NCBI GenBank assembly: GCA_032718475.1
Contig: JAUCBJ010001620.1
Coordinates: 1-41,500, forward strand
DNA length: 41,500 nt
Origin: Nemertoderma westbladi
Taxonomy: Eukaryota > Animalia > Xenacoelomorpha
Direction of reading: 5' to 3'
A program made the translations under genes and the position numbers. The notes under the pieces were generated by a model, which worked only from the letters and a program-made list of their open reading frames with translations, did no database searches and was not told where the DNA came from. Below, one piece after another: positions 3,262 to 37,247 of the stretch. The number at the start of each line of letters is the position of its first letter. Position 1 is the first letter of the stretch.

Positions 3262-3289
3262 GTTAACAAGTTAGTAAGAATTCAAAGAG

Positions 3290-6653: not shown

Positions 6654-9600
6654 TGAATATAAAGCAACCACTATATACTGTTATCGACAACAACTATGGA
6701 AGGTCTATAGTGATTTAACCATGTTAATGTTCTAACACAAATCTATTACTTATCGTAGGGGCCTACTGGCATCCAATAGAATATAAAGTAGGCCTACTTG
6801 ACGAAATCAAATCCTCGTTTAGGTATTGATTCAAATCGGGTAAAAAATTCGACATATGCTTTGATGATTCATTAATTGAACCCCGGCCCCTTTATTACAG
6901 TTAAGTAAAATATCTTTAAAATTATTTGCGACTCAACTGAAATAATAAATATATACACTGACATAATTTTAATATTAGGCCTACGCTAAAATCAAATCAG
7001 GGATGCACATAAAATTAAAATACCCAGATTCAAGTTCAATCTACAAAGTCAGTGATCTATCACGCCTTGGCTTGATTGATTCTCTAGATTGCATCTACCT
7101 GACTGCAAATTTTGTGATAATATTAATAATAATTTATATAGCGCCTTTCTGGACATTACTTCTAGGCGCTACTGTATTATGTTGTATTGTATTAGCCTAT
7201 ACAACTGTAGTGATGTTTAAGTAGAGTACTGTATGTTAAATTGCTAGCAATTAATTGTGGTAAGCCAAGCTTCCAGCCTCCTATATGCAATAGTCCTAAT
7301 TAATAATTTTGCCCTCAGCCTATTTAATTTGTAAAATAGAGTAGTTTCATAGTACTACATGAATCTGCACCCACCGAATTTAAAAAATCTGGATCGAAAA
7401 CATGGTAGTGGAGCTGAGTGGCTTAGTGACAAAAGTGGAAAACCAGCCAACATTTTTTTGTAAGTTCCTTTGGGTATATACAATACTGTAGGCGTACAGT
7501 AGATGACAACCAATCCCATGCTCCAAAAAATCCGACAATATTTCATAACGTACTTTCAATTTCATGTTTAGTTCCTTAGCAAACATTGATTTTACATAGC
7601 AAAAAAGTAGCTATTGGTGAGACGTTTCCTAAATTTTGAGAAAACGAACTTTAGTCCAATGACTATCGTACTGGACTGAACTCACTGCAACCTTGTCCCC
7701 TAAAAATATACCCGATGTTTCATAAACTATTGTGATTATTAAAAACGTTGGCAATATTGTGGAATCCCATCTTTCCTCTGTCGTCAGGTGGAGGTTACCA
7801 TTATGATTCGTTGTGAATATCTGGAATTGGAAGGTTGTCATGGAGATCGAAAATGAATGGATATATTACCTAAAATGAATACATCAATCCCAATATTAAT
7901 AAATGTTAAATGGCCGTTAACATTAGTAGAAATTATCAAGTTTCCTTGCAGATCAATTCTATATGTATATTTCTTTAGAATTTCCAGCAATAAATATATG
8001 ATTAACTACAAATATTTTTGGAGCATGTGATTTTTGACATATGCATAGTTACACCTACTCATAAAAATACTTTTGGAAATTTCATCTCAATTTTTTAATG
8101 TGCCACTCCACTATGGCGGACCTCCATTATTTATAAAATAATAAAAAAAAACCATGTGGTGCCCATCCCAGGTGAAAATAAATATTTATTTTAATTCGGT
8201 TTATAATATATTTTAAATTTAGTTATATTTAAAATTGTCGCTAAATTAAGATTACTTTCTACCCACAATATAACACTGCTTAGGCCTACAGTATACCAGT
8301 TTACCGGTCCTGATAGCAGCATTACAATTGACCAGCTAATATTTAACAAATGTACATAACTTATTAAAGGTACCGAAAGGTGGGGGCCGGGCGGTACCTA
8401 CTGTATACCTTGTTAGTGCTGTTAAAAACGAAGTAGTCATATCGTATACCACACAACCTGGAATAGTCAAGGAGTTTCATTTTTTCTTGAAATGTCGGCG
8501 AAATATCTGGGAATATTTCTAAAAAACGATAAATCAGGGAAAAGACGGGAAATTTGATAAACTGGTGATTGATTGATTGACATAGGTGTATGTATTGTAT
8601 AGTATAGGCCTATCATAAGCGAACATGTGTACAATTTTATCTGCTCGTTTCGCCCACCATTCTTATCCATTTACTCACATCACTACCTATGTACATAATA
8701 AGTACACTCTATTTGCTTTTTTATCAATAGGCCTATGGTCTCTTGTGGTAGGAGCCTAGTTTGCCGATATCTTTCTTCATATTAAAAGACTCGCTAACAA
8801 TGTCCCAATGTGTAACAATAGGTTCCACCTTGGTGTAGTGGTCGCATTGAATACAAATTGCATACGCATGAATACACATGCATGCAATTGAATACGCATT
8901 GGACACAAAATTTACTTTTTTTACTTTATTTTATGTCTATGTATTTTTTTTTTGTAATAAAATAAAGCGAGTGAATAAGAAAAAGCGGCCAATATAATAT
9001 ATTTCATAAAAATGTAGTGAGAGAATTTTTTCAAAAACTCAGGGATTGAATTGAACTTTCAATATTTATTTCCTCCTTGGTCCACGGATTGTTGTTTTAA
9101 ATTTCCCTTCATTTGTTGGTTCAAGCGTTTGATAAAATATACCACTGTTTATTATTTCAACGTCTATACAAATGTATAATTCCATTAGTCCAGATAGCCA
9201 GGTTTTCAGTTCTGTTTGAACAGTTCGATGCCGTGTACTGAAGGATACAGTACTACTGTATCTATTGGTCTGAAAACATTTTATACTTTAATTCCTATTA
9301 TAAAGTTTGACAAATTTCAGAATAAAATATTGCGGATTCTGTTTTTAATTTTTTATATGCAATTGGATTTTCAACAGCAGTGTATCGCAGTATCACAATT
9401 TTTGAATAAAACTAAATAAATACATATAGGCAGGCCTACTTCTTGTAAAGTACTTTTCATAGTAATATTTTCACTACATTCATTTTTTTACTCGGATCAG
9501 CAAACTCTAATGTGATAGGCCTAGTTTAATTTTAAACAAAAGTTTGTAAATAGTACATGTTACTCTATAAATTTTAAAGGATGGAAATGTTATTACAATA

Positions 9601-10732
9601 TGAGATCATCGATTGATGTAGGCGCTACCAGTACAGAACATATGTACAGAACAATGTTACTGTAGTAATTGTGAGTGCCGTAGCTTTGTGTATAAGGCAT
9701 TGAGGGTATAATTGATTCTTGAGGGAGGAGGCTCAATTAAAAATAATGTGAAAACCCACAGTGTAGCCTAGCAGGAGTTTTTTATATTCCTGTATGTTGG
9801 GAAGCAAACATATGTACTGTAGGCCTAGTACATTAAATTAATCCGTGGTGGTATTATTAGAAGCATGATTTAACATACAGTACGGCCCTTATATTCCAAA
9901 ACCGTGTATCTCGATTTTTGACGAAAATGACATATTTATATATTTGGAATCAGAATTTCAAGGCGCATCTTTCTATCCAGGTCCCGAAGCTTGAAAATCA
10001 AATGCAAAGAAAATAGTTTGCGACCAAAACCGTGTATCTCAATATTTTTTGAAGCAATTTTTAATCAAAACCATTTATCTGAGAAAAATTAACCGAAAAA
10101 AATTAACTGACCAATAGGATGCAAGATCTCCATGATTATTAATTTATCAAAACAGTGTATCTCTGTTTCGGAAATTCGTTTAATTTATCAAAACCATCTA
10201 TCTGGAGATAGACGGTTTTGGACCACCTCTAGAACAAATCTTTCTCAGATAGACGGTTTTGATTACAAATTCAATGTTCAATAAATGTTCTAGATATATT
10301 TCAAAACACAGTTAACTGGTCATTTAGTCTGAACAATTCGTTTGCAATTGTCGCGGCCAGCTACCGTTTACCGGTAGTTAATTCATAAATCAACAATTCA
10401 GGCATTAACAAACTACACAAAGCGTTATGATAACATATTGTATAGTTTCAGTTTAGGTAAACAACCATGAGAGTTTAGGTAACAAGAGTTTACCAGTTGG
10501 TTGTGTTACTGTACCATACCGTTTTGTCATCTATAAGCAATTCATCGATCAAAGAATCAGAACAACAGTTTTTTTAAACACTTTCTTGACTCTTGGTAGC
10601 AAGCCAGTTTGTTTATTTTATATCAAGCATAGCACTGATATTCGTGTAAGTAAACAATGTCTGCCACACGCAAACAATATCCTCTACGGAGGAAGGCTAT
10701 ACCCCCTAATGATTCCAATGCTTCTGGTAAAT

Positions 10733-11992
10733 GGTGACGTTGGAGGGGGACATACAGAGATGAGTGGAAGTGGTGACGTTGGAGGGGGACATACAGAGGA
10801 GAGTGGGAGTGGTGACGTTGGAGGGGGACATACAGAGGGGAGTGTGAGTGGTGATGTTGGAGGGGGACATACAGAGGGGAGTGGGAGTAGTGACGTTGGA
10901 GGGGGACATACGGAGGAGAGTGGGAGTGGTGACGTTTGAGGGGGACATACAGAGGGGAGTGGGAGTGGTGACGTTGGACGGGGACATACAGAGGGGAGTG
11001 TGAGTGGTGATGTTGGAGGAGGACATACAGAGGTGAGTGGGAGTGGTGACGTTGGAGGGGGACATACGGAGGAGAGTGGGAGTGGTGACGTTGGAGGGGG
11101 ACATACAGAGGGGAGTGGGAGTGGTGACGTTGGAGGGGGACATACGGAGGAGAGTGGGAGTGGTGACGTTGGAGGGGGACATACAGAGGGGAGTGGGAGT
11201 GGTGACGTTGGAGGGGGACATACAGAGGGGAGTGGGAGTGGTGACGTTGGAGGGGGACATACAGAGGGGAGTGGGAGTGGTGACGTTGGAGGGGGACATA
11301 CAGAGGGGAGTGGGAGTGGTGACGTTGGAGGGGGACATACGGAGGAGAGTGGGAGTGGTGACGTTGGAGGGGGACATACAGAGGGGAGTGGGAGTGGTGA
11401 CGTTGGAGGGGGACATACAGAGGGGAGTGGGAGTGGTGACGTTGGAGGGGGACATACAGAGGGGAGTGGGAGTGGTGACGTTGGAGGGGGACATACAGAG
11501 GGGAGTGGGAGTGGTGATGTTGGAGGGGGACATACGGAGGAGAGTGGGAGTGGTGACGTTGGAGGGGGGCATACAGAGGGGAGTGGGAGTGGTGACGTTG
11601 GAGGGGGACATACAGAGGGGAGTGGGAGTGGTGACGTTGGAGGGGGACATACAGAGGGGAGTGGGAGTGGTGACGTTGGAGGGGGATATACAGAGGGGAG
11701 TGGGAGTGGGGACGTTGGAGGGGGACATACAGAGTGGAGTGTGAGTGGTGATGTTGGAGGGGGATATACAGAGGAGAGTGGGAGTGGTGACGTTGGAGGG
11801 GGACATACAGAGGGGAGTGGGAGTGGTGATGTTGGAGGGGGATATACAGAGGAGAGTGGGAGTGGTGACGTTGGAGGGGGACATACAGAGGGGAGTGTGA
11901 GTGGTGACGTTGGAGGGGGATATATTGAGGGGAGTGGTGACATTGGAGGGGGACGTACTGAGGGGATTGGGAGTAGTGGCGTTGGAGGGGGG
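10733..11992 (+). repeat. 39-bp G-rich minisatellite, about 32 copies (GGTGACGTTGGAGGGGGACATACAGAGGGGAGTGGGAGT)
   Basis: Directly visible tandem array; it accounts for the five long repetitive ORFs on both strands. Confidence 0.97.
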
Positions 11993-14960: not shown

Positions 14961-15585
14961 TATGAAAATTTACAATAAAAAAACATATTTTAGCATGGAT
15001 TTATTTTCCTAGTCAGTAATTTAATTAAGCAATTTGGTTTTTTTAGTCCATACTGCTTTTCGTCTTTTTGGTATCATGAAATCAGTCATTACTTCATTAG
15101 TCAGCATTCCACTATCTGACTTGTCAGACAGGGGAGTGGTCTCCCTATCCGCTGTCAGCTTCTGCAGTACTGGTGCTACGTGCTAAAGCAGAGGGCATAC
15201 CGTCAGAACTGCAGAATCCGAGTCTATGCGTTGCGTTATCACTTGGCTACCCGTACGCGGCTGGTAAGAGGTGCGGTGCCGGTAAGGCCTGAAGGCAGTA
15301 TGCAGTAAGGAGTGGGTCTGTCAGTCTGTGCACTGTACTGTGACAAGTCGCTAAAAGGTGCCACCATGCTCCATAGCGCGGGAAATTCAAATGATTGAAA
15401 GACATGTAATTTGTACTGAAAAGGGTGGAAGATTAGATCTGCCACCTACATTTTGGCGGTAAATTATTTAACATTGAATACATCAATAGGGTAAGACTAA
15501 ATAATAAAATGTAATTCATTGAATCAGAATAACTTGTTTCATATCGGTTTAACTCACTCATCAGTTATTGTTGTTGTTTTATCTA

Positions 15586-15815
15586 TTCTGGGGCTTCGAG
15601 CAGCACGTGAACAACTAAGCTGACTGGTTAAATAATCTGGGGCTTCGAGCAGCACGTGAACAACTAAGATGACCGGTTAACTAGTCTGGGACTTCGGGCA
15701 GCACGTGAACAACTAAGCTGATTGGTTCACTAGCCTGGGACTTCGAGCAGCACGTGAATAACTAAGCTGATTGGTTAACTAGTCTGGGACTTCGAGCAGC
15801 ACCTGACCAACTAAA
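15586..15815 (+). repeat. 50-bp subterminal tandem repeat of the left TIR (~5 copies)
   Basis: TCTGGGACTTCGAGCAGCACGTGAACAACTAAGCTGACTGGTTAACTAG units. Confidence 0.9.
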
Positions 15816-18344: not shown

Positions 18345-18925
18345 GCAGATTGTTCAGATAATTGTAGGCTGGACTCTTGTCGGACTGTTGTTGGGTCTGG
18401 AGAGATTGCGGCGTGTGTAGAGTCTGTCCGATAAAGTGCCAGTTAGTAAGTTGGGGCATCTTGAGTTGTAAGGTCAACCCCCTCCTAAAGAATAAGTCGT
18501 ACTACCGTGTTAGAACGCATACTAACTAACCATTTTGGAATCTGCATATACTGTAGTTTATTTAGGCTTGATAGTAGTCTACCAGCGTTTTAGCCTGTGT
18601 TTGTTTGTGTGGTCTGTTCAGGCACCGTAATAGTTATTACTCAGATATTTTGTAGGCTGGATTGTTGTCTGGCTGTTGTTGGGTCTGGAGAGATTGCGGC
18701 GTGTGTAGAGTCTGTCCGATAAAGTGCCAGTTAGTAAGTTGGGGCATCCAGAGTTGTAAGGTCAACCCCCTCCTAAAGAATAAGTCGTACTACCGTGTTA
18801 GAACGCATACTAACTAACCATTTTGGAATCTGCACATACTGTAGTTTATTTAGGCTTGATGGTAGTCTGCCAGCATTTGGTTTGTATTTTGTTTGAGTAT
18901 TCTGTACGGGTAGCGTAATATTTAT
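18345..18925 (+). repeat. Two tandem ~290-bp units in the LTR, each a predicted G.U-rich RNA hairpin
   Basis: Direct repeat at about 18350-18640 and 18640-18925; hand-pairing of the arms is given in the findings. Confidence 0.8.
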
Positions 18926-19078
18926 TATTCAGAGTTTATGCGATTATTCGCAACATTCATGTCCCCAAGTTTATTCCTACAGTAATTGTGCTTGTTACAC
19001 ATACTGGTTGTTCTTTCTCCGGTGTAATAAATAAATTTTATTTTAAATATTGTCACTGTGAAATAATAATAATAATTA

Positions 19079-19590: not shown

Positions 19591-19845
19591 GCGTCTAAGC
19601 AGTCTGACAAGTCCCTAAAAGGTGCCACCGAGCTCCATAGCGCGGGAAATTCAAATGATTGAAAGACATGTAATTTGTACTGGAAAGGGTGGCAGATCAG
19701 ATCTGCTACCTATATTTTGGCGGTAAATTCTTTAACATTGAATACATGAATAGAGTAAGACTTAAATGTAATTCATTGAATAAGAATAAATTATTTCTTA
19801 TCGGTTTATTAACTCACTCATCCGTTATTGTTGTTGTTTATCTAT

Positions 19846-20667
19846 TCTGGGACTTCGAGCAGCACGTGAACAACTAAACCTGACGTTAACTAGTCTGGGG
19901 CATAGAGCAGCACGTGAACAACTAAACTGGCTGGTTACCTAGTCTGGTACTTCGAGCAGCACGTGAACAACTAAACTGACTGGTTAACTATAGTCTGGGA
20001 CTTCCAGTAGCACGTGAACAACTAAGCTGACTGGTTAACTATAGTCTGGGACTTCCATAGTAGCACGTGAACAACTAAGCTGACTGGTTAACTATAGTCT
20101 GGGACTTCCAGTAGCACGTGAACAACTAAGCTGACTGGTTAACTATAGTCTGGGACTTCCACTAGCACGTGAACAACTAAGCTGACTGGTTAACTATAGT
20201 CTGGGACTTCCAGTAGCACGTGAACAACTAAGCTGACTGCTTAACTATAGTCTGGGACTTCCAGTAGCACGTGAACAACTAAGCTGACTGCTTAACTATA
20301 GTCTGGGACTTCCAGTAGCACGTGAACAACTAAGCTGACTGGTTAACTAGTCTGGGACTTCCAGTAGCACGTGAACAACTAAGCTGACTGGTTAACTATA
20401 GTCTGGGACTTCCAGTAGCACGTGAACAACTAAGCTGACTGCTTAACTATAGTCTGGGACTTCCAGTAGCACGTGAACAACTAAGCTGACTGGTTAACTA
20501 GTCTGGGACTTCCAGTAGCACGTGAACAACTAAGCTGACTGGTTAACTATAGTCTGGGACTTCCAGTAGCACGTGAACAACTAAGCTGACTGGTTAACTA
20601 TAGTCTGGGACTTCCAGTAGCACGTGAACAACTAAGCTGACTGGTTAACTAGTCTGGAACTTCGAGC
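19846..20667 (+). repeat. Expanded 50-52-bp tandem array (~16 copies) in the internal TIR arm
   Basis: TAGTCTGGGACTTCCAGTAGCACGTGAACAACTAAGCTGACTGGTTAACTA units, nearly identical, with no unique spacers. Confidence 0.95.
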
Positions 20668-20924: not shown

Positions 20925-21277
20925 ATAGTTAACCAGTCAGCTTAGTTGTTTAGGTGCTGCTCGAAGTCCCAGACTTGTTAACCAGGCAGCTTAGTTGTAC
21001 ACGTGCTGCTCGAAATCCCAGACTAGTTAACCAGCCAGCTTAGTTTTTCACGTGCTGCTCGAAGTCCTAGACTAGTTAACGTGCTGGTTTAGTTGTTCAC
21101 GTGGTGCTCGAAGCCCCAGACAACCGGTAGTTAGCGTGCTGGTTTAAATGTTCACGTGCTGCTCGAAGTCCCAGACTAGGTAACCAGCCAGTTTAGTTGT
21201 TCACGTGGTGCTCGAAGCCCCAACTACCGGTAGTTAGCGTGCTGGTTTAATTGTTCACGTGCTGCTCGAAGTCCCAG
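20925..21277 (-). repeat. Inverted copies of the 50-bp repeat in the right TIR (~7 copies)
   Basis: TTAGTTGTTCACGTGCTGCTCGAAGTCCCAGA units, the reverse complement of the left-arm units. Confidence 0.9.
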
Positions 21278-21744
21278 AATAGATAAATCAACAACATTAA
21301 CGGATGAGTGAGTTAAACCGATAATAAATAATTTATTCTGATTCAATGAATTACATTCTGACATTGGCAGATTGGTCTTACTCTATTCATGTATTCAATG
21401 TTAAAACAGATTTGAATTTACCGCCAATATATAGGTGGCAGATCTGATCTGCCACCCTTTCCAGTACAAATAACATGTCTTTCAATCATTTGAATTTCCC
21501 GCGCTATGGAGCAGGGTGGCACCTTTTAGGGACTTGTCTGTACTGTGGGTTGCTGGGTTGGGTATGCTGGTATGGTATGGTAATTAAGCAGTAGGTGGAC
21601 TGGTCAACTGTCAACCGGTCCCGGCTCCCGGCTGCCCGGTATTCAGGCCTGTCAGGTATTTTATCAGTGAATATACCCAGATACGATTCGGTAGCCAGGT
21701 AGCTGCTACATGAAGTTATAGGCCTAGGCGCTTACTTTCTTACT

Positions 21745-22950
21745 TTCTCATTTACTCACTCACTTAAATGCATACTTACTCCTGTACTCACTTACATGCT
21801 GTAGTAACATACATAATATTTTAATAACTACGGTGCCTTGGTTGCGGAAAATCTGATTTGTTCTTTCTTACTTACTCACTCACTTACTCGCTCGCTCGCT
21901 CACTCACTTACTTTCTTATTTGTTACTATTTATTACTCGCTCACGCACACATTCAATCACCCACTCACTCGCCCACTCACTCGCTCACTCACTCACACTC
22001 ACTCGCTCACTCACACATTCACTCACTCACTCAAACATTCACTTACTCGCTCACCCACACACCCACTCACTCACCTCGCTCACTCACTCACACATTCACT
22101 CACTCACTCACTCACACATTCACTCACTCACACATTCACTCACTCACACATTCACTCACTAGCTCACTCACACATTCACTCACTCACTCGCTCACACACA
22201 CATTCACTCACTCACTCACACATTCACTCACTCATTTAGTTACTTACTTTCTTACTTACCCACTTACTTACTTTCTTTCTTACTTACTTACATAATCACC
22301 TACCGACTTACTTACTCACTCACTCACTTACTTTACTTTACTTACCCTCTCACTTACTTTACTTACCCACTCACTTATTTACTCACTCACTTACTTACTT
22401 ACTCACTTACCTACTTACTTACTTACTGACTCACTTACTTGCTCACTCACTTACATTCTTATTTCACTCACTCTCTCAATCACTCACTCATTCACTCACA
22501 CATTCACTCACTCATTCATTCACCCACTCAATCAGTCACTCACTCAGTCACTCTCTCATTCATTCACACATTCACTCATTCATTCACTCACTCACCCACA
22601 CACTCATCCACTGACCCACTCATTCACTCACTCGCTCGCTCACCCAAACATTCACTCACCCACTCACTCAGTCACTCACTCACACATTCACTCACCCACT
22701 CGCTCATCACACATTCACTCACCTACTCACTCAGTCACTCACCCACTCACTCAGTCACCCACTCACTCACTCACTCGCTCATCACACATTCTCTCACCTA
22801 CTCACTCAGTCACTCACCCACTCACTCAGTCACCCACTCACTCACTCACTCGCTCATCACACATTCTCTCACCTACTCACTCAGTCACTCACCCACTCAC
22901 TCAGTTACCCACTCACTCACTCACTCGCTCATCACACATTCACTCACTCT
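21745..22950. repeat. Compound (ACTC)n/(ACTT)n microsatellite
   Basis: Directly visible; produces the His/Ser/Leu/Thr-rich spurious ORFs. Confidence 0.97.
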
Positions 22951-24434: not shown

Positions 24435-24982
24435 CTAAGGACCACTCTGATACAAAGAGGCCAATGGGCCACAAGACCACACAGTTAGCGCAGATATATG
24501 CTGTAACTGTAAAAAGCAATCTTAGGGCCAGTCAGATACGAAAGCAGTCAATGGGCCACAGGGCCTAGAGGCAACATGTTGCCAAGATGCCACTAATGTT
24601 GCCATAGGGCCACATTTATATGCTGAGAGGTTGCCAATGGGCCACTGCCAATTCTGGGGGGGTGGCACAGTGGCAACATTTATATCAATTATATATATAA
24701 ATATATATATACATAATGAAAATAAAGTAATAGGAAGGCATTTTAAACAACCATATGTTCACTGTTCAGCATGATCCGGTCTCTTAGATACAATTTTGAG
24801 TTGAACGAATTATGTTTTTGACAGACCAATATCAAGCAAGTAAATTTATTTGGAAACAGAGAAACAACATGTTCCTATCTGTTCAACCGTAAGTAGTCAT
24901 CGTTTTATTTAAGCAGGGACGCAAAGCGCAACCCTGTTTAAATACTGTAAGTAAAATTATCACATTGGATACATTTTTGCAT

Positions 24983-25036
24983 ATGTGTTTCGCCGGGATT
25001 TGGCTCATCAGCCACACTAACCCGTGCAGGACACAT
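24983..25036 (-). ncRNA. Type III hammerhead ribozyme, canonical core
   Basis: The minus strand reads AUGUGU-C-CUGCAC-GGGUUA-GUGUGG-CUGAUGA-GCC-AAAUCCC-GGC-GAA-ACACAU: stem III 6 bp, GUC cleavage triplet, stem I 6 bp, stem II 3 bp, all core nucleotides intact. Confidence 0.88.
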
Positions 25037-25326
25037 GTTAATCAAACTAACTACACCAAAAAACAGCTAAACACACACACATACATATAAACAAAATAGT
25101 ATTGCATTCCATTATTTTAAGAGACCGGATCATGCTGAACATGGTTGTATAAAATGCCTTCCTATTATTTTATTTTTATTATAAATAGCAACCATGCACT
25201 AGACAAATTATTTCATATAGTGTTGCTAAGGAAATGATTGCTTATTTGATCTGGAATGCAATACTATTTTGTTTATATGTATGTGTGTGTGTTTAGCTGG
25301 TTTTTGGTGTAGTTAGTTTGATTAAC

Positions 25327-25380
25327 ATGTATCATGCACGGGTTAGTGTAGCTGATGACCCAAATCCCGGCGAAACACAT
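25327..25380 (+). ncRNA. Type III hammerhead ribozyme, degenerate copy
   Basis: AUGUAU-C-AUGCAC-GGGUUA-GUGUAG-CUGAUGA-CCC-AAAUCCC-GGC-GAA-ACACAU: the core is kept, but stems I, II and III each have a mismatch next to the core. Confidence 0.7.
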
Positions 25381-26086
25381 ATGCAAAAATGTAACCAATG
25401 TGATAATTTTACTTACAGTATTTAAACAGGGTTGCGCTTTGCGTCCCTGCTTAAATAAAACGATGACTACTTACGGTTGAACATATAGGAACATGTTGTT
25501 TCTCTGTTTCCAAATAAATTTACTTGCTTGATATTGGTCTGTCAAAAACATAATTCGTTCAACTCAAAATTATAAATATATATAAATATAAATATAGGGC
25601 CTACCTTGGATTCCCTTTTTTTCTCAATAATAGCAAATATTGGAAAGGTCATTCAAGGCCGTTTGGCGACAAAGACCTCAATTTTACAAAAAATGTAATA
25701 ACTCCGCATTTCATTTGGTTTTTTCGAAATCCACGATGCCATATCATGGGATGGAGGACTGGGTCAGGACGGAGGTATTTTTATTAGAAATTTTTGGCAT
25801 TTTCCGAACTAAACCATTGCTAAGATAATATTTACCCACTTGAGAACAGGCAGACAGAGGGACGAATATAATGATACACGGTTGATGTTTGATTTTGCAC
25901 CGAAATAAATGCTGAAGGTCAGTCAACCAATTCTAGTCTCATCCCATACATACATTACAGTTCCATTTTTACTATTTGGTAGACTACATACAAGACAAGA
26001 CAACTATTATAATTATTATTAACTTAAACTTCATAATTACTTTAAATAAAATACCCATCACCAAAATAGTCAATGAAAGGAAAGAG

Positions 26087-26734
26087 TTAGCAAAGTCCCA
26101 ACCCAATCAGAGACACAATCATCACACCAACCATTCGACCATATATGGTAGATCCCGCACTGACTGAGGTTGTTGTATCTTCAGACGATGTTTCGGACGT
26201 TTTGGTTGTGGTAACTTCGGATTCGTCGTGATGAAAATCTGAGTGATTCCAATCAATAGAACCGTCGCTATTTTTGTATTCATTTTCCCACTGAACGCCT
26301 GCCTGAACTATGGCTTCACAGGCATCACTTCCCTGGCAACAGAACTTCTGGCAACGTGCCATAGTAATGTCCATAACTGTGATTTCTTCCTGTGTCTCCG
26401 CTGTGTAACTCTCTTGGTCTCCCGTACACTCTTTCTCATTCAAATCTTTGAGACATTCTGACTCGCACATGTAGTATCGTGTGTTTCCCAATACTCGTTT
26501 CATTGGGTTTTGCAGTGGCCCACCCAATACCTGATAGAAGGTGACTGAACAGGTAGCGCAATCTTCACGAATTTCGCCATCGGTTGTCAACGGCTGATTT
26601 TTGAAGTTAATATTTTGGTCTGGGTCGTTTGCGATGCTCGAACCAAAGGAAAGGTCGTCTTTGCATGTTGCAGTACCGGCACCAGCAGTAAGAACTGGTA
26701 GGGCGAATACTGCCCATAGAAGTACTGCTTCCAT
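26087..26734 (-). CDS. Cys-rich Ly6/uPAR(three-finger)-like cell-surface protein with predicted GPI anchor, paralogue B (215 aa, single exon)
   Basis: ATG at 26734; same length, signal peptide, 10 Cys, stalk and hydrophobic tail as paralogue A; 23 amino-acid differences and no indels or stops. Confidence 0.82.
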   Translation of the reverse strand: MEAVLLWAVFALPVLTAGAGTATCKDDLSFGSSIANDPDQNINFKNQPLTTDGEIREDCATCSVTFYQVLGGPLQNPMKRVLGNTRYYMCESECLKDLNEKECTGDQESYTAETQEEITVMDITMARCQKFCCQGSDACEAIVQAGVQWENEYKNSDGSIDWNHSDFHHDESEVTTTKTSETSSEDTTTSVSAGSTIYGRMVGVMIVSLIGLGLC

Positions 26735-27368: not shown

Positions 27369-27435
27369 TGACACCCTACGTTATTATAATTCGTTGTTTA
27401 GACTAAACAACGAATTATAATAACGTAGGGTGTCA
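27369..27435. repeat. Perfect palindrome, 33-bp arms with a 1-nt spacer
   Basis: TGACACCCTACGTTATTATAATTCGTTGTTTAG-A-CTAAACAACGAATTATAATAACGTAGGGTGTCA. Confidence 0.95.
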
Positions 27436-29648: not shown

Positions 29649-31777
29649 TGTAAAAGCTTTTGCGTAATTAACCGGTTATTTTCCCTTAAAGTACTCTGTA
29701 GTTGGTTTACCAGGCATAAAAGGGCCGTGTCCTTGCTGTACTGGTGTTTTAGAGGACATAAAAGTCATTTCTTCTGTATTTGTACTTTAGAGGACATAAT
29801 CCGCAATCTCGTGACGCGATAAGCTAGATACTCTTGAAAACAGTGTCGCTACCATGACGACGGCTGACAGCTGATATTGCCACGTCGACATTTCTTTGTT
29901 TCTTTGTTCTCTCGTTGTTCGGTTGACCAATCTGAGCGTTTTTTGTCTCTGTGTTGGAGGTGGATACAGAAACTCAGTAGTTCAGTGTTGTGTTTTTGCC
30001 CAGAGCCTAAGAACACCGGCTTTTGGCACCTCCGTATATCAGCATTCTTTAGCTTTACATTAGTAGGCTTAATTATAGAAAGTATATCTGTTATCTAACC
30101 ATACCAATGCAATTCGAGTTAACATACCATATCTATCCATAAATTACTAATATTACTGCTTTTACTGTCGGTTATTCATTATATTTGTTGATGAAATATT
30201 ATATCGGAATACTGATCAATAGTCAGACACCCCACCTTCTTGATATACTAAAGGTTAGAGAGACCGGTTACAGATAAACGATTGCGACCTATGTTAAGTG
30301 GTTTGAAGTGAATCTAATGCTATTTCATAGGCCCGACATAAATTGTATGTTGCTCTCTTTATACGTGACTAAATTTAGTGAAGGTTGGCAGATTAGTGTG
30401 CAGTATTGTGCAGCATTGTGTATGATTGTAACTGATAACAAAGCATCTCCTAAAGAATGCGCCATATACTTAAATCTATAGCTTTTTCGTTGTGTCTAGT
30501 TTAAGTCATAACTCTGTTTACATATTTAGAGCGCCACGTCCTAAAGGAACTGTTAATATTTCCCGAAAGTGAATAATATTTGTCAGAGATTATATATTAC
30601 GATCAGTCGAATAATGCGGTAGGCTTACACCATCAATCATTAAGCTTCCGAATTCAGTCTCCCGGGTATATCCAGCGGGTGAATGATTGCGCATAGACTG
30701 GCTTCGGCTAATGTAGTGTATCAAATACTCGTCATAAGCTAAAGAATATATATCATCTAAAAGACATCCTAATTTGGCAGGTTAAACTGTCAAAGGTCTT
30801 AAAAGCGCAAACAATAACAGATATTGCTTCTGGATTGCGGTGTAAGCAATCTAGTCGAAAGTACCGGTCGACCGGTAACCAGTAGGCCTGACTGCCTGAT
30901 CATCCGGACCGGTACCTACAGTAGTACAGGTACAGCAGTATTATTTGATTGTGGTATTGTATACCGGTAGGCTGTTTAAGAGATTAGGGACTGTACACCC
31001 CTTGTTTCTTTTGGAGCTTACTTATTTCTGTCAGTTTTATTTATTTGTAAGCCAGTATTGAGCAGAAGGCGTGTAAGCCTGCTCAGATTGTACAGATAAT
31101 TTGTAGGCTTGACTGTTGTCTAACTGTTGTTAAGTCTGAACGGATTGCAGTGTGTGTAGAGCATCTGTCCGATGAAGTGCTAGTTAGGAAAGTAGGGGCT
31201 TCAAGTGCTGTGAGGTAAACCCCCTGTGAAAGAATAAGTCGTACTACTGGGTTAGAACGCATACTAACTAATCATTTCGGAGTCTGCATATACTGTAGTG
31301 TATTTGGGCTTGATAGTAGTCTGCCATCGTTTAGTCTGTACTTTGTTTGTGTAGTCTGTACGGGTAGCGTATAATTTTATTTAGATAATTTGTAGGCTGG
31401 ATAGTTGTCTGGCTGTTGTTGGGTTTGAGGAAATTTTGGTGTGTGTAGAGCATCTGTCCGATAAAGTGCTAAGTTAGGAAAGTAGGGGCTTCAAGTGCTG
31501 TGAGGTAAACCCCCTGTGAAAGAATAAGTCGTACTACTGGGTTAGAACGCATACTAACTAATCATTTCGGAGTCTGCATATACCGTAGTTTGTTTAGGCT
31601 TGATAGTAGTCTGTCAGTATTTGGTCTGCATTTTGTTTGAGTAGTTTGTACGCGTAGCGTAATATTTATTATTCAGAGTTTATGCTATTATTCGCAACAT
31701 TCATTCCCCAAGTTTATTCCTACAGTAATTGTGTTTGTTATACATACCGTTATAGTTAAACTAACCCCAGTACTACA
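29649..31777 (+). repeat. Long terminal repeat (2129 bp)
   Basis: TGTAAAAGC...TACTACA; homologous over its length to 16721-19005; internal ~290-bp tandem units at about 31084-31670. Confidence 0.85.
29925..29987 (+). promoter_or_regulatory. Putative LTR promoter (CCAAT box + TCAGT initiator-like motif)
   Basis: CCAATC(T/A)GAGCG and a downstream TTCAGT are conserved at equivalent positions in both LTR copies (about 16964 and 17022 in the solo LTR). Function is inferred only. Confidence 0.4.
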
Positions 31778-31941: not shown

Positions 31942-32400
31942 GTCTGCCATCGTTTAGTCTGTACTTTGTTTGTGTAGTCTGTACGGGTAGCGTATAATTT
32001 TATTTAGATAATTTGTAGGCTGGATAGTTGTCTGGCTGTTGTTGGGTTTGAGGAAATTTCGGTGTGTGTAGAGCATCTGTCCAATAAAGTGCTAAGTTAG
32101 GAAAGTAGGGGCTTCAAGTGCTGTGAGGTAAACCCCCTGTGAAAGAATAAGTCGTACTACTGGGTTAGAACGCATACTAACTAATCATTTCGGAGTCTGC
32201 ATATACCGTAGTTTGTTTAGGCTTGATAGTAGTCTGTCAGTATTTGGTCTGCATTTTGTTTGAGTAGTTTGTACGCGTAGCGTAATATTTATTATTCAGA
32301 GTTTATGCTATTATTCGCAACATTCATTCCCCAAGTTTATTCCTACAGTAATTGTGTTTGTTATACATACCGTTATAGTTAAACTAACCCCGGTACTACA
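31942..32400 (+). repeat. Second, 5'-truncated copy of the LTR 3' end (459 bp) abutting the internal region
   Basis: Matches 31319-31777 at offset 623 with three substitutions seen; ends TACTACA. Confidence 0.92.
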
Positions 32401-33632
32401 TCAGGGCTGCTCGGCGTAGGTAAAGACTGGAGATTTTGTGCTTTGGTCACTCCGGCAGATACCGTGGTTCTTTTGGCTGTTCAAGTATTTTTAACTACTG
32501 ATTATTTGTTATACAAGTACTTGTACCTAATTTAGGGTTTAGTGTACAGTGCTTTCCGAAAGCAATTAGTGTGTAGGCAGTGTATTTGTGTTGTAAAGTG
32601 GTTAATAGGCACGTTGGTTCCGGTAGACCGCGGTAATTAACTTCTAGGTAGGGACACTCCGTGATACATAACGTAGTACCTATAGCGATACGGTTATAAG
32701 TCGTCAGGCGGTGGTATTTTCCTATCTGGACAACGCAGTATATTTACTACTACTTATTATTTTCAAATACCGTAGTAATCTGTCCGTTGTAATAACCAGA
32801 TATTCTAACCCTTTGTTAGGCTGGTTAGTAGACTTCTTGTAAAATTACCCTAAAAATTCGTATTTGTGTATTGGTAATTAAATTTTTGTGTTTATTTAGA
32901 GATTGTAATCTCAACCCGAATTGTACGTAATTTGTAGTATTAAGTAACTTAGGTAAATTAGAATTATTTGTTTTAGTGTCTAACAAGTAGCACTCCACTG
33001 AGAGCGCACAGCTTATGTGTAGTGACTCCCCCAGAAATAATAACATTTATTTCAAACATTGACAAAACCCATTAAACGGGTATATATATATTATAAATCA
33101 ACTCAAACGATTTATAAATAGTAGGCCTGCCATATAACAATTAGGTCTCAATATCAGTTGGACTACTGCTCAAATAACGGTAATAAAGTAAGTTAAAGTA
33201 ACCAAGTAACCCTTAAAATTCAGAAATTCAATTATTCTAAAATAATTGACATACCGGTATTTACAATAGGCTTATTATATTTATTTCATAAACTTAGGCT
33301 GAAATCATACCGGTATTCTGTAATTAATTCTAGTTAATAATTATACTTATATATACTATAAGTGTAAACTGCATACCGCTATCCACGATAGGCCTATTAT
33401 ATATTTATATATATTTGTGCTAAAATTATATACCGGTATTCTGTAAAAAACCTAGTCTGTAATAATACTTATATATACCATAAGCATACCGGTATTCTAA
33501 CATTATATATATATATCACGCTACACTGAGTAGCAGTATCGGTGATTAATTACTAGGCTAGCAGTTAATGCTGAATTACTAGACTTGCTTAGACTGTAAT
33601 ATAGCAGTAGGCATTCAACTGTGCAAACAAAC

Positions 33633-35537
33633 ATGTCTGATACTAAGCAGAACCTGTCAGACAGTTTATTAGATGTAACTATCTGCGACTCAGATAAGGG
33701 TGTAGAACCGTCTACACCTAAATTCAGTTCACCTCCCACTGTGAGGAAGGTCATCCCTCCAGTAGTAACAACAGAACCTAGGCTGGTCCAACACCGTAGG
33801 TCTATCATAGGCACTCGAGCTCAGGTCAAGCGGGACCAAGAAGCAGCGGAACAGCAACAACCCGCAAGCCAAGAACTTATTTCTCAGCGGCCCGACAGCT
33901 CCAGTAGTGAAGATACTGTAGAGCTGACACCCGAGCGCGGAGCAAGGATGACGGATGCGGTTTATTCGGATCCCCTTCTCATCCTTCCTGCAGCCGTACT
34001 CACTAGGTTATTGATCGCGGTGGAAGAACACCAGATCGATTGGGCGAGAAGTAAGCGATCAACTAAGGATAGTTATGAGGGATACACAAGGGAAGAACTG
34101 AAGTCTATGGTCGAGTCGCAATGGAACTTCCCCGGACCCGGACTCCCGTTTGATTTATCAGAAGCTGCCTGGGAAGACATACACCGGATGGGAGTAGCCA
34201 AGGAGACCACCGATCCAGCTGTGTGGAAGAGGTCCGCAGCCGGATACGCACAGGGATTCTTCAGCTCTATGGAGCGAGTAGAAAAACAACTGTTTCAACA
34301 ACCCCAAGGACCTCAAGAGCAGGGACAACTGCTTTATCAAGTTAGAGAAAGAATTCTACGAATCAGGCTAATCTTATCAGCCTTTGAGGAGGCTTCTAAA
34401 AGAAGACAAGACACGTCGTTGCAAGTTGCTGTAAAGACTTGGTTTCAACGGGTGAGTCTCCAGGTTCAAGGAACGGCTCAGTGGAAAGCTCAGCTAGAGG
34501 AGCGCTCAACCCATGGAGAATCCACGGATGCTACCTTTTCCCAAGTGGAAAGTGAAGCGACCGCAGAGAAGCCGCATAGGAGGGATGCCATTGACATTTA
34601 TCTGTCAGACTATCAACGTTTTTTAGGTGATGAAGAGTTGAGGAGAAGGTTAGGCGGACTTAGCCCTAATAGTGAAGGAGCCCAGCGTGTGTTGGACGCA
34701 ATCGATGTGGATAGGTTAGCTGCGAACCAAGCTAAATTCAATGAAAGTATCCGCATCGCTAAGGTTCAAGAAGAACAAATAAAGAAAAAACGTATAGAAG
34801 ACAGAAAGATAGCAGCAGTGGCAGAAGCAGAAAGAAAGGCGGCAGTGGCAGAGGCAGAAAGAAAAGCGACCTTGGCAGAAGCAGCGGCAGAAGCGGAAAG
34901 AGAGATAGCGGTGGCAGAAGCAGAACGGAGAGCGGCTGAAGAGATCGCCCAACTGGAGTTGGAAAATCTTCAAGAGAAGCAAGACGACTTCAGTAAACAG
35001 TTTACAGCTAGTAATATGCAGATGATGAATCGATCTACTCCCAAAAGACAGGGTCATACATCATCTGAGGAAGGCGATACCACCGATCCTGAAGGAGGAG
35101 GAAATCGATCTCGCCTAAGCAGACGTAAAAGAATGTCCCACCGTCAGAAATTGCCTGATTTGCCCCCAGCTGTTAGAAGGCAACTAAATAACACAAACTT
35201 AGGTAGTACAGAACCCACAGACCAAATAATTAAAATAGAAAGACTCCCTACTATAGTAGATGAGCCTGAAATAATTAGGCCTGTTCTTGAAATCACCCCT
35301 TCGGTGATAGAGACACCTGTACTCCCAGAACCTACCTTTAAATTCCCTTTACACAGCACCAAATTATCTGTGCCTAGAGGAACAGCCCTTGAAACAGTGT
35401 CGGTCCTGGACTCCGAGCGAAATATAAAGGATATATCGCCCGTAGTCCCTCGTCTGCCCGCTACGACGTTGGCGGATCCCGCTTCGGCGGTTGATTGGGT
35501 GGACGAGAGACGGCGGGGGATGGACATTCTCCTCTGA
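33633..35537 (+). CDS. BEL/Pao 5' ORF or extended Gag N-terminal region (coiled-coil, low complexity)
   Basis: Long open frame from the ATG at 33633 with AEAERKAA coiled-coil repeats; same frame as Gag, separated from it only by TGA-AAG. Confidence 0.75.
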   Translation: MSDTKQNLSDSLLDVTICDSDKGVEPSTPKFSSPPTVRKVIPPVVTTEPRLVQHRRSIIGTRAQVKRDQEAAEQQQPASQELISQRPDSSSSEDTVELTPERGARMTDAVYSDPLLILPAAVLTRLLIAVEEHQIDWARSKRSTKDSYEGYTREELKSMVESQWNFPGPGLPFDLSEAAWEDIHRMGVAKETTDPAVWKRSAAGYAQGFFSSMERVEKQLFQQPQGPQEQGQLLYQVRERILRIRLILSAFEEASKRRQDTSLQVAVKTWFQRVSLQVQGTAQWKAQLEERSTHGESTDATFSQVESEATAEKPHRRDAIDIYLSDYQRFLGDEELRRRLGGLSPNSEGAQRVLDAIDVDRLAANQAKFNESIRIAKVQEEQIKKKRIEDRKIAAVAEAERKAAVAEAERKATLAEAAAEAEREIAVAEAERRAAEEIAQLELENLQEKQDDFSKQFTASNMQMMNRSTPKRQGHTSSEEGDTTDPEGGGNRSRLSRRKRMSHRQKLPDLPPAVRRQLNNTNLGSTEPTDQIIKIERLPTIVDEPEIIRPVLEITPSVIETPVLPEPTFKFPLHSTKLSVPRGTALETVSVLDSERNIKDISPVVPRLPATTLADPASAVDWVDERRRGMDILL

Positions 35538-35540
35538 AAG

Positions 35541-37247
35541 ATGGAGGAGAATCGAGTGCGCTCCTCCCAACAGGTCCGAGAGTTAGAAGGGACTGTTCAA
35601 CAGTTAAAGGGAACCGTAAAGGAAAGTAGGTTAGAGTTGCAAGAAGTGCAGCAAAATATCGCGCTAGAACGTGATAAATTAGTAAATTTACAAAAGGGTA
35701 TACCACCACCCCCTGTAACAATGTGTCAACCTGTTAGGTCTGAAGTATCTCATGCGCAAGGTGTGGAGCCTACACGCATCTATACTGCTAGCGAAGTAGA
35801 AACTCCTATAGTGAACCCTATTAAGAGTAATTATAGACCTGTTGATAATGATATTCCCTATAGACCAGATCATAATCCGAGAAATTTATATACCGATAAC
35901 TCGATATTAAATAACACGATGGCCCAAGAAAGTTTTACGCGTCAAATGGCTAGAACCGAAGCCCGGCAAGCAGTAAAGGTGGGAGAGATCGTCAAGTTCA
36001 ATGGAGATGAGATGAAATGGTTACCTTTTAATGAATATTACAAAGATAACATACAGAACTCTGTACTATCTAATGGAGAGAAACTTAGGTTCCTCATCGA
36101 GTGCTTGGAAGGATCTCCCAAGTTAATGGCGTTAAAGTTTATTGGTCATCCAGACGGATTAAGACAAGTTTGGGATACACTAAACATCAGGTATAGTAAT
36201 AGGAATAACATAGCTGGGTATTTGTATGCAAAGTTAGTAGCGCCCCGAAAGTTTATTAGCAGCGGGATTATAGAGTTTTCCGATGAGATTCAGGAGATCT
36301 GCAGACAATTAGATTGGCTAGGTAAGTCTCATGAGTATCAGAGTGCTATGGTTATTAGAGCAGTGGCTTCTACTTTACCGAAGGGTGGAGTAGGTACACG
36401 CTGGGATAAGAAAGTGTTATATATGATGGAACAACAACGACGAGACCCTACCATGGCTGATCTCATGTCATTCCTAGATGGAGAAGTGAAATTACAGCTC
36501 CTGAAACTGTCCAGAGAGAAGACACCGGAAAACAAGGTAAGTGAAAAACCCGTCTCTAGGAGAAAGGTAACACCAGTGTGTTATACAGATGACGGCGAAA
36601 GCCAGACTTCTCAAGGAGAAGATAGCGGGAAAGACACTGACAGATCTTATTACGTAAATAAAATGCCTAAAGATCAGGTAAGTAAATTCAAGTCTCGAAC
36701 CAATGACAGGAGAGAACAGGTAAGAAGAACTCCTCCTACGTCTCCCAAGAGAATTCAGGTGAGAAAGCCCGAAGAAAAAACAAGTGTACACAATGTTACT
36801 CAGAGTAAGGTGAGTAACATCAAACCGAAATGTGCGCTATGTGATGGGACCCATCGCTTAAATATGTGTGATGAATTTCTAAAGAAATCATTAACTGAGA
36901 GACGTGAAGTCATGTGGGATAAGCGGTTGTGTTATAATTGCCTCAGACAAGGACACCAACGGCGAACCTGTTACTCTGACACAAGATGTGCCAAGTGCGG
37001 TGCGAAACATCATATCTTGTTGCATACTGAATTCGAGCGAAATAGTCCGAGTCAGGTAAGTGATTCCGAACTACATGTCCAATTCAGTGATGTGAACGAC
37101 ACTGATCAATCTGAGATGGAAGGATTCTATACAGACGAGTTCTCCGACGAAAACGAACCCTGTTACATGATAAATACCACAGTGTATCGAGCACTCACTT
37201 ATGAAAAAGATACAGACATTGACCTCGCTCTAACTACTTCTGATTGA
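35541..37247 (+). CDS. gag: BEL/Pao Gag (capsid-like core + zinc knuckles)
   Basis: KFNGD..W..F..LSNGEKLRFL..L.G core; CALCDGTH..C, CYNCLRQGH..C and CAKCGAKHHILLH knuckles. Confidence 0.93.
   Translation: MEENRVRSSQQVRELEGTVQQLKGTVKESRLELQEVQQNIALERDKLVNLQKGIPPPPVTMCQPVRSEVSHAQGVEPTRIYTASEVETPIVNPIKSNYRPVDNDIPYRPDHNPRNLYTDNSILNNTMAQESFTRQMARTEARQAVKVGEIVKFNGDEMKWLPFNEYYKDNIQNSVLSNGEKLRFLIECLEGSPKLMALKFIGHPDGLRQVWDTLNIRYSNRNNIAGYLYAKLVAPRKFISSGIIEFSDEIQEICRQLDWLGKSHEYQSAMVIRAVASTLPKGGVGTRWDKKVLYMMEQQRRDPTMADLMSFLDGEVKLQLLKLSREKTPENKVSEKPVSRRKVTPVCYTDDGESQTSQGEDSGKDTDRSYYVNKMPKDQVSKFKSRTNDRREQVRRTPPTSPKRIQVRKPEEKTSVHNVTQSKVSNIKPKCALCDGTHRLNMCDEFLKKSLTERREVMWDKRLCYNCLRQGHQRRTCYSDTRCAKCGAKHHILLHTEFERNSPSQVSDSELHVQFSDVNDTDQSEMEGFYTDEFSDENEPCYMINTTVYRALTYEKDTDIDLALTTSD

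What the first reader, a model, noticed from the sequence alone, without database searches (positions are those of the whole stretch)
24983..25036. Canonical type III hammerhead ribozyme in an animal-like genome
Seen: complete core (CUGAUGA, GAAA, GUC), three intact stems, and loops GGGUUA and AAAUCCC whose GGG/CCC could form a loop-loop contact; predicted cleavage between 25030 and 25029 on the minus strand. Established: most metazoan repeat-associated hammerheads are type I, while type III is typical of plant retrozymes and viroid-like RNAs. Inference: an active self-cleaving RNA of an uncommon topology for this context. It lies on the same strand as paralogue B, about 1 kb downstream of its stop codon, so it could cut extended 3' transcripts.
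Basis: partly seen in the sequence, partly recalled or inferred. Interest (0 to 1): 0.78.

Follow-up and report, generated by a model that had tools for sequence, protein, structure and literature searches.

The report
Type III hammerhead in animal retrozyme
A hammerhead self-cutting RNA fold of the type III layout typical of plants and viroids sits inside a 459-base, highly repeated non-coding element of a likely animal genome, which likely spreads as RNA copied by Penelope-type retrotransposon enzymes; known animal elements of this kind use the type I layout, and this copy is probably not a control switch for the neighbouring gene.

Summary
The motif is real: full core, three stems, type III order, cut predicted at 25030/25029 (minus strand). 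It is not a lone 3'-UTR ribozyme. It lies in a back-to-back double insertion (24708-25574) of a 459-nt, 33% GC, non-coding unit; a second, damaged hammerhead sits at 25327-25380 (+). Public DNA contigs stack on the unit far above single-copy depth in 2 of 3 runs of this organism (roughly hundreds to a thousand copies). The partial-tandem plus inverted layout, TA-rich target and two recurring 3' ends match Penelope-like insertions. One other genomic fold-back starts exactly at the predicted cut. The loops can form a 5-bp kiss (GGGUU/AAUCC). Against 'active': the hammerhead is not the lowest-energy fold, and this copy's private change at 25013 widens the gap from 4.7 to 10.6 kcal/mol. A paralogue-B read-through would bury it in a 323-bp hairpin. 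Best reading: a retrozyme-like Penelope passenger with a type III instead of type I ribozyme. Cleavage, RNA circles and the helper element are untested. Type III hammerheads in animal genomes are published as isolated motifs; six literature searches showed no high-copy animal retroelement with one.

The parts
24983..25036 (-). Type III hammerhead, copy 1 (core intact; predicted cut 25030/25029; private G at 25013 favours a misfold)
   Evidence: sequence; majority letter; folding
25018..25023 (-). Loop 1 GGGUUA; first five bases predicted to pair with loop 2
24995..25001 (-). Loop 2 AAAUCCC; AAUCC predicted to pair with loop 1
24708..25111 (-). Minus arm of the insertion, 404 nt: starts 82 nt upstream of the cut, runs through the unit junction and ends at the 'long' 3' end
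25112..25574 (+). Plus arm, 463 nt: one whole 459-nt unit (25116-25574), circularly permuted, ending at the 'short' 3' end
   Evidence: (X5 contig joins 25574 to 25116 in one sense)
25327..25380 (+). Hammerhead copy 2, damaged: stem III (25331), stem I first pair (25334), G10.1 position (25359)
   Evidence: majority letters at 25331 and 25334
25116..25187 (+). Segment between the two recurring 3' ends (tail-like, about 60-72 nt); its second copy is 24708-24787 (-)
   Evidence: (loose ends, depth)
24696..24709 (+). Left copy of a candidate 14-nt target-site duplication in a TA-rich tract
   Evidence: register not unique (a 15-nt alternative at 24691/25576)
25571..25584 (+). Right copy of the candidate target-site duplication; its first 4 nt are also the last 4 nt of the unit

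Best explanation
The motif is a type III hammerhead fold inside a 459-nt non-coding, highly repeated unit that is likely a retrozyme-like passenger of Penelope-like retrotransposons: its RNA is predicted to cut itself into unit-length pieces, which likely get ligated into circles and reverse-transcribed into TA-rich DNA. Shown: the fold's sequence, the second copy, the unit and its circular order, the high depth, the head-to-head layout, the TA-rich flanks. Inferred steps: (1) read-through of a more-than-unit copy gives RNA with two ribozymes; (2) the ribozyme, helped by a 5-bp loop-loop kiss, cuts as a monomer during transcription; (3) the RNA then refolds into a rod in which the ribozyme is switched off, and part of it is ligated; (4) a Penelope-type RT-endonuclease primes at one of two internal sites about 241 and 302-313 nt after the cut; (5) on cut linear RNA the copy stops at the cut site, on circles or dimers it reads across it; (6) priming from both DNA strands gives back-to-back arms. 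Here the minus arm ends at the long site and reads 82 nt past the cut, and the plus arm ends at the short site and spans one full lap. This locus is likely a recent, decaying insertion.
For: Unit and circular order: both junctions are in the window, and one X5 contig bridges 25574 to 25116 with 236 and 145 letters on the two sides (record 20). Abundance: 371 (X1) and 149 (X3) contigs lie on 661 bases; depth at 25013 is 43,232 and 12,018 against 30.4 and 17.2 on the single-copy flank (ratios about 1,400 and 700; summed contig depth overcounts and is no copy number). Family letters favour the fold: A at 25013 (U-A pair in stem I) in 43,232 of 43,232 (X1) and 12,018 of 12,018 (X3); G at 25331 in 27,954 of 27,954 and C at 25334 in 27,964 of 27,992 (X1), 6,950 of 6,950 for both in X3. 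No further variant row at 1% or more inside 25327-25380. A fold-back joint at single-copy depth in both X1 and X3 (two studies) has one arm starting exactly at 25029, the first base after the predicted cut, with no overlap letters (25335, where 25334 mismatches): 1 of 6 fold-back arm starts known to me, chance about 0.013. Recurring 3' ends: among 16 of 112 loose-end rows shown, 4 rows lie at 24784-24800 and 3 at 25176-25187, and three of these seven flanks are TA-rich; X1 depth falls from 49,900 (24791) to 34,763 (24787) to 11,668 (25185). Both arms share two letters that differ from the family majority (24845/25518, 24921/25442), as expected if copied from one source. No ORF over 41 aa from ATG, GC 33%, circular fold z = -3.3 against 40 shuffles. 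Published PLE marks: partial tandems, an inverted 5'-truncated copy, tail, (TA)n targets (PMC8557442 passages); two internal RT start sites bounding the tail (PMC11167929 passages); close opposite-strand hammerhead pairs (PMC4209133).
Against: No cleavage or RNA data. The hammerhead is not the minimum-energy fold: 10.6 kcal/mol above it for this copy and 4.7 with the majority letter; stem I and II pair probabilities are about 0 at equilibrium (pseudoknots are not modelled), and an upstream hairpin competes during growth (stem I peaks at P 0.62 with the majority letter, 0.35 for this copy). The 5-bp kiss arises in 4% of random loop pairs and has no covariation support. The cut-site joint is one locus; the other 5 of 6 arm starts are elsewhere. 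Depth across the cut falls gradually (43,232 at 25350-equivalent, 27,954 at 25331), near a stretch edge, not as a step. The tail is 60-72 nt against 30-40 bp published. No autonomous PLE was found: no genome is held. One search gave no row at 25359 although the two copies differ there and one search gave none at 25004, so the family letter at G10.1 is only inferred. In a cloned PLE, hammerhead cleavage was not needed for insertion (PMC11167929), and 8 of 9 Xenopus retrozyme dimers did not cut in vitro (bioRxiv 2026.07.22.740005).
Confidence: 0.7

Rival explanations
1. The unit is the terminal repeat (pLTR) of a longer, possibly autonomous Penelope-like element that carries a type III hammerhead, and the 459-nt circle is a deletion derivative of it.
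For: 3 contigs in X1 and 5 in X3 leave the unit before 25218 into one shared sequence of 255 nt or more (agreement 0.76, 0.74). Animal retrozymes are reported to derive from pLTRs (bioRxiv 2026.07.22.740005, parts 1 and 3). Compatible with the best explanation; it concerns origin.
Against: All PLE hammerheads described in the parts read are type I (PMC4209133 parts 1-2). No ORF was seen; the loose sequence could be an older subfamily.
Confidence: 0.3
2. The unit descends from a viroid-like or satellite circular RNA replicon (where type III hammerheads are typical) that was reverse-transcribed into the genome and then amplified by host retroelement enzymes.
For: Type III topology, 459-nt size, compact circular fold. 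HDV-like circles of a toad and a termite carry pseudoknotted type III hammerheads with relatives in termite and fly genomes (PMC7936874 passages).
Against: No ribozyme core on the antisense strand; GC 33%; no exact or geometry-matched relative in IMG/VR, JGI metagenomes (0 of 21 pattern hits had three stems) or GTDB (0 of 4).
Confidence: 0.12
3. A once-active ribozyme repeat that now spreads without cleavage: the fold is a relic, and uncut read-through RNA or DNA-level duplication is the template.
For: Competing folds win at equilibrium; both arms here cross the cut site; PLE insertion in vitro used uncut RNA.
Against: Family-majority letters restore stem I, stem III and the GUC triplet; one fold-back starts exactly at the cut.
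Confidence: 0.15
4. One reading: a cis-acting ribozyme that cuts extended 3' transcripts of paralogue B.
For: Same strand, about 1,058 nt after the stop. A discontinuous type III hammerhead in Clec2 3' UTRs is a precedent (PMC6155905 passage).
Against: Repeat insertion with private damaging letters; no aligned depth in X1 or X3 carries this copy's letter at 25013, so the insertion may be absent from those animals; three AATAAA upstream; the opposite arm would trap it in a 323-bp duplex; another high-copy repeat (25600-25710) lies between.
Confidence: 0.05
5. A MITE (DNA transposon) with about 75-nt terminal inverted repeats at 24708-24787 and 25118-25187 that carries the hammerhead.
For: Those two stretches are inverted repeats around copy 1.
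Against: They are the same internal segment of the unit on two arms: the plus arm runs on through 25188-25574, and the X5 contig holds the segment once, in one sense, inside the unit.
Confidence: 0.03

Closest known systems
Animal non-LTR retrozymes (Cervera and de la Pena 2020, PMC7229834, passages; Li, Clavereau and Pollet 2026, 10.64898/2026.07.22.740005, parts 1 and 3 of 5)
   Same: Non-coding, low-GC unit of a few hundred bases with one hammerhead, many copies, more-than-unit layout, long candidate TSD, likely PLE-driven.
   Different: Those are defined by type I hammerheads with a weak stem III that often need dimers. This one is type III with a 6-bp open stem III and a predicted Watson-Crick loop kiss; 459 nt is just above the quoted 150-450 bp; circles are not shown.
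Penelope-like elements and their pLTR hammerheads (PMC4209133 parts 1-2 of 4; PMC8557442 and PMC11167929 passages)
   Same: Partial tandem plus inverted 5'-truncated copy, TA-rich target, two recurring 3' ends downstream of the ribozyme, opposite-strand hammerhead pairs a few hundred bases apart.
   Different: No ORF; ribozyme type III, not minimal type I; 60-72 nt between the ends against a 30-40 bp tail; helper element not seen.
Plant LTR retrozymes (as described in passages of PMC7229834, PMC7761336; PMC4918200 seen as a listing only)
   Same: Type III hammerhead in a non-coding retroelement.
   Different: No direct LTR pair, GC 33% against over 55%, unit 459 against 600-1000 nt, candidate TSD 14-15 against 4 bp, loops unlike the 4-nt loop 2 type.
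Pseudoknotted type III hammerheads of Drosophila pseudoobscura, termites, dipterans and HDV-like circles (PMC7936874, PMC10761166, PMC3088659, passages)
   Same: Type III order in an animal context with a Watson-Crick loop 1-loop 2 contact.
   Different: Those have long helices I and II with an internal loop and, in termites, were found as isolated motifs; this one is compact (6/3 bp, terminal loops) and in a high-copy element.

Membership tests
Hammerhead ribozyme, type III | Core CUGANGA, GAA, A15.1-U16.1, H17 | tested here: met
   (copy 1)
Hammerhead ribozyme, type III | Three helices, I and II closed by loops, III open | tested here: met
   6, 3 and 6 bp; a type I reading fails downstream of GAAA
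Hammerhead ribozyme, type III | Loop 1-loop 2 tertiary contact | tested here: inconclusive
   5-bp kiss possible, -4.3 kcal/mol as a free duplex, 4% by chance; no covariation data
Hammerhead ribozyme, type III | Match to an Rfam hammerhead model | tested here: not met
Hammerhead ribozyme, type III | Self-cleavage at NUH | not testable with these tools
   indirect only: one genomic fold-back starts at 25029; competing folds
Animal non-LTR retrozyme | Type I hammerhead | tested here: not met
   type III; definition
Animal non-LTR retrozyme | Short non-coding low-GC monomer | tested here: met
   459 nt, GC 33%, longest ATG frame 41 aa
Animal non-LTR retrozyme | Many copies, tandem arrangement | tested here: inconclusive
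   high depth in 2 of 3 runs of organism A; unit junction bridged, but no array of two full units seen
Animal non-LTR retrozyme | Linear and circular monomer RNA | not testable with these tools
   no RNA holder on record
Animal non-LTR retrozyme | TSD longer than 4 bp | tested here: inconclusive
   14-15 nt candidates in a TA tract; empty site not bridged
PLE-type insertion | Partial tandem with adjacent inverted 5'-truncated copy | tested here: met
   two more fold-backs
PLE-type insertion | Two 3' ends bounding a 30-40 bp tail | tested here: inconclusive
   two recurring ends 60-72 nt apart, from 7 of 16 shown loose-end rows and depth
PLE-type insertion | Microsatellite (TA)n target | tested here: met
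   this locus; 3 of the 7 end rows
PLE-type insertion | Autonomous RT + GIY-YIG element sharing the repeat | not testable with these tools
   no genome held
Plant LTR retrozyme | Direct LTRs, 4-bp TSD, GC over 55%, 600-1000 nt | tested here: not met
Plant LTR retrozyme | PBS and PPT | not tested
   not looked for
Viroid-like circular replicon | Ribozymes in both polarities | tested here: not met
   no antisense hammerhead core; no Rfam ribozyme
MITE | True terminal inverted repeats | tested here: not met
   apparent repeats are one internal segment on two arms

The most novel reading that the evidence does not exclude
This is an animal retrozyme family built on a monomer-active, kissing-loop type III hammerhead, gained independently of the type I ribozymes of Penelope elements (possibly from a viroid-like circle), whose genomic insertions record both templates: copies that stop exactly at the ribozyme cut (linear RNA) and copies that run exactly one lap (circular RNA). 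It would show that Penelope machinery can carry any self-cleaving circle and give a direct genomic read-out of ribozyme cleavage and ligation in an animal germ line.
Probability: 0.35. Interest if true: 0.78.

Novelty: new variant of a known kind. Interest (0 to 1): 0.6.

Why it matters
The published split is type I hammerheads in animal retrozymes and PLEs, type III in plant LTR retrozymes and viroid-like RNAs; animal screens use type I descriptors, so a type III family would be missed, and Rfam misses this one too. Whether hammerhead cleavage matters for Penelope-type mobilisation is open (PMC8557442, PMC11167929 passages). A young family with hundreds of copies, a defined cut and two defined priming sites makes that testable by counting insertion ends, and a compact ribozyme with a Watson-Crick loop kiss is easy to test by swap mutants.

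Tried and rejected
Whole genome: none held, so no copy alignment, covariation test, end census or helper search. No RNA holder listed: no evidence either way. X5 is only a guessed RNA run of another organism label; its one contig stops at 25024, 5 nt from the cut, but contigs cannot show RNA ends, so I do not count this. X4 (organism A, third sample) shows only 3 diverged contigs and none on the hammerhead, but it also lacks the unrelated neighbouring repeat (depth 6 against thousands), so this looks like filtering, not absence. X7 gave 0 contigs (no proof of absence). Empty-site test failed: both flanks are repeats and the TA tracts were skipped. Rfam: no hammerhead match. Relatives: exact patterns found nothing in JGI metagenomes or IMG/VR; relaxed patterns gave 21 metagenome and 4 GTDB hits, none with three stems. 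A relaxed core scan of the window found no other credible hammerhead, including in the 290-bp tandem repeats (5 cores, 1 is this motif; copy 2 fails the stem II filter). Type I reading rejected. MITE reading rejected. Paralogue B: no homologue at E<=0.001 among 172 candidates of 118-377 aa, no Pfam hit. Earlier findings by sequence and by place with 'hammerhead' or 'Penelope': none.

Full report
Observation. The minus strand at 25036-24983 holds every hammerhead element in type III order: stem III (6 bp, open), C17 at 25030, stem I (6 bp) with loop GGGUUA, CUGAUGA, stem II (3 bp) with loop AAAUCCC, GAA. My descriptor found it once in the window and in 0 of 200 composition-matched random windows. 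A type I reading of the same core fails. Rfam 15 has no match at gathering score in the window and no hammerhead at E<=10 locally, so the motif is not 'canonical' in its periphery. The loops pair best as GGGUU/AAUCC, 5 bp; random loops do that 4% of the time. About 40% of hammerheads were predicted to use such a pseudoknot (PMC3088659, passages).

Context. The motif lies in one arm of a 323-nt, 98% inverted repeat, 24789-25111 and 25252-25574. The arms differ at 8 places, 4 of them inside the 54-nt motif (P = 0.03, a post-hoc count). The second arm carries a copy at 25327-25380 with changes in stem III, the first pair of stem I and G10.1. The spacer holds an inverted copy of 24708-24787. All this resolves into one 459-nt unit (25116-25574, GC 33%, longest ATG frame 41 aa) present twice, head to head: a plus arm of 463 nt, which is one full lap, and a minus arm of 404 nt that starts 82 nt before the cut, crosses the unit junction and ends about 72 nt further round. 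A 14-nt direct repeat in a TA-rich tract flanks the whole (24696-24709, 25571-25584); a 15-nt alternative register exists. The host is likely an animal: the window holds a LINE-type RT and a DUF1759 LTR-element frame, paralogue B resembles Ly6/uPAR proteins at lead level, and earlier unchecked notes on this genome say animal.

Copy number and family letters. Nine public runs were listed, 4 holding over half the words, none on record as RNA. I laid 5 of the 9. On 24600-25260, 371 contigs of X1, 149 of X3, 3 of X4 and 1 of X5 were laid; on 25296-25760, 244, 88, 3 (X4) and 0 (X7). Depth at 25013 is 43,232 (X1) and 12,018 (X3) against 30.4 and 17.2 on the single-copy flank, ratios near 1,400 and 700. 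The tool warns that summed contig depth is no copy number, so I say only hundreds to about a thousand. X4 lacks the stack but also lacks the next repeat, so it is uninformative. At 25013 all aligned depth in X1 and X3 has the letter that makes a U-A pair where this copy has U-G. At 25331 and 25334 the family has copy 1's letters: 27,954 of 27,954 and 27,964 of 27,992 in X1, 6,950 of 6,950 in X3. No other row at 1% or more falls inside the motif, against four minor-variant rows reaching 1% in X1 or X3 downstream (25450, 25461, 25514, 25523); that contrast is too small to prove selection. One thing is unexplained: no row appeared at 25359 nor at its mirror 25004, though the two copies differ there. 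The X5 contig has five differences from copy 1, four listed and the fifth likely 24791, which implies G10.1; this is inference. The two arms share two non-majority letters and stand 1.5% and 1.9% from the majority, so both came from one source and have since drifted.

Signs of the mechanism. One X5 contig joins 25574 to 25116 in one sense with 236 and 145 letters either side, confirming the circular order. One search lists 5 joints: 3 reflect the window's own permuted layout, 2 are true fold-backs. One of these, at single-copy depth in both X1 and X3 (two studies, likely one locus), has an arm starting exactly at 25029, the first base after the predicted cut; one search places it at 25335, one base in from copy 2's mismatch, which fixes the arm on the downstream side. 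With the X4 fold-back and the window's own, that is 1 of 6 arm starts, chance about 0.013. It is what reverse transcription to the end of a self-cleaved RNA would leave. Of 16 loose-end rows shown (112 in all), 4 lie at 24784-24800 and 3 at 25176-25187, the same two places where the window's arms end; three of the seven flanks are TA-rich. X1 depth steps down from 49,900 (24791) to 34,763 (24787) and 11,668 (25185). Penelope-like elements leave partial tandems, an adjacent inverted 5'-truncated copy, an optional tail and (TA)n targets (PMC8557442, passages), and a purified PLE enzyme starts reverse transcription at two internal sites that bound the tail (PMC11167929, passages). The helper itself was not seen because no genome is held.

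Against activity. ViennaRNA puts the hammerhead 10.6 kcal/mol above the best fold for this copy and 4.7 above with the majority letter. The rival pairs loop 1 and stem I with loop 2 and stem II; this copy's G at 25013 adds a hairpin over CUGAUGA. During simulated growth an upstream hairpin also competes, and stem I peaks at probability 0.62 (majority letter) or 0.35 (this copy). The program cannot score the kiss. An off-state after transcription is usual for ribozymes in RNA circles (recalled), so this fits a family that cuts once and refolds, but it also leaves room for a slow or dead ribozyme. The unit folds better than shuffles as a circle (z = -3.3, 40 shuffles). In published work 8 of 9 Xenopus retrozyme dimers did not cut and PLE insertion in vitro did not need cleavage.

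Paralogue B. The cut lies about 1,058 nt after the stop, behind three AATAAA signals and another high-copy repeat. A read-through RNA would carry the complementary arm first and bury the ribozyme in a 323-bp duplex. Paralogue A has no such element, and this copy's private letter has no depth in X1 or X3. I rate the regulatory idea at 0.05.

Comparison. It works like an animal non-LTR retrozyme but fails that family's defining type I feature (PMC7229834, passages; bioRxiv 10.64898/2026.07.22.740005, parts 1 and 3 of 5; PMC7761336, passages), so I do not file it as a member. PLE hammerheads in PMC4209133 (parts 1-2 of 4) are all type I. It shares the ribozyme type with plant LTR retrozymes but none of their tested element features. 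Type III hammerheads in animal genomes are known: D. pseudoobscura, termites, dipterans (PMC7936874, PMC10761166, passages) and the discontinuous Clec2 motif (PMC6155905, passage). Six searches showed no high-copy animal retroelement with a type III ribozyme. [quoted passage not shown] No relative was found in viral, metagenome or prokaryote collections. Earlier unchecked notes of this scan describe the same two-site back-to-back layout in other animal genomes and two other type III cases; I had written the PLE-retrozyme idea before seeing them, and they are not independent support.

Verdict. Observation confirmed; interpretation partly supported. Best explanation, confidence 0.7: a retrozyme-like Penelope passenger with a type III, likely kissing-loop hammerhead; this locus is a decaying double insertion. 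New variant of a known kind; interest 0.6.

Noticed in passing
window 25218 (loose ends): 3 contigs in X1 and 5 in X3 leave the unit before 25218 into one shared sequence of 255 nt or more: a candidate longer parent or older subfamily.
   Followed up: no
window 26087-26734 and 6006-6680, minus strand: Two intronless paralogues, 90% alike over 832 nt: signal peptide, cysteine-rich core, hydrophobic tail. ESM Atlas points to Ly6/uPAR-type clusters at 0.84-0.88 (lead only); no Pfam or sequence homologue.
   Followed up: partly
window 25419-25457 (+) and its mirror in the minus arm: A long hairpin inside the unit; a minor variant at 25450 (3,440 of 32,528 depth in X1) would close its one A-C mismatch. 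Candidate protein-binding site.
   Followed up: partly
window 25600-25710: A separate repeat with depth of thousands in X1 and X3 lies between the element and paralogue B; 24600-24682 on the left is a lower-copy repeat.
   Followed up: no
window 167-3070, minus strand: Open 967-aa frame of an APE-endonuclease plus RT LINE (Pfam RVT_1 E 8e-21), with short upstream frames at 2956-3631.
   Followed up: partly
window 33600-37247, plus strand: Two long frames, the second with DUF1759 and a zinc knuckle: start of an LTR retrotransposon, BEL/Pao-like by recalled resemblance.
   Followed up: partly
window 27369-27435: Perfect 33-bp palindrome with a 1-nt centre.
   Followed up: no
window 15341-15814, 19606-20663, 20925-21538: A 49-51-bp satellite in direct and inverted blocks.
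   Followed up: no
window 18354-18933, 31093-31677, 31942-32400: A family of about 290-bp tandem units; no hammerhead core in the relaxed scan.
   Followed up: partly
window 10732-11991 and 21935-22949: A 39-bp G-rich minisatellite (32 copies) inside a transposase-like frame (recalled resemblance), and a 1-kb (ACTC)n tract.
   Followed up: no
window 25325-25380 against 24983-25036: 4 of the 8 differences between the arms fall in the 54-nt ribozyme (P 0.03) and all four weaken the fold of the copy that carries them; chance or loss of activity after insertion.
   Followed up: partly
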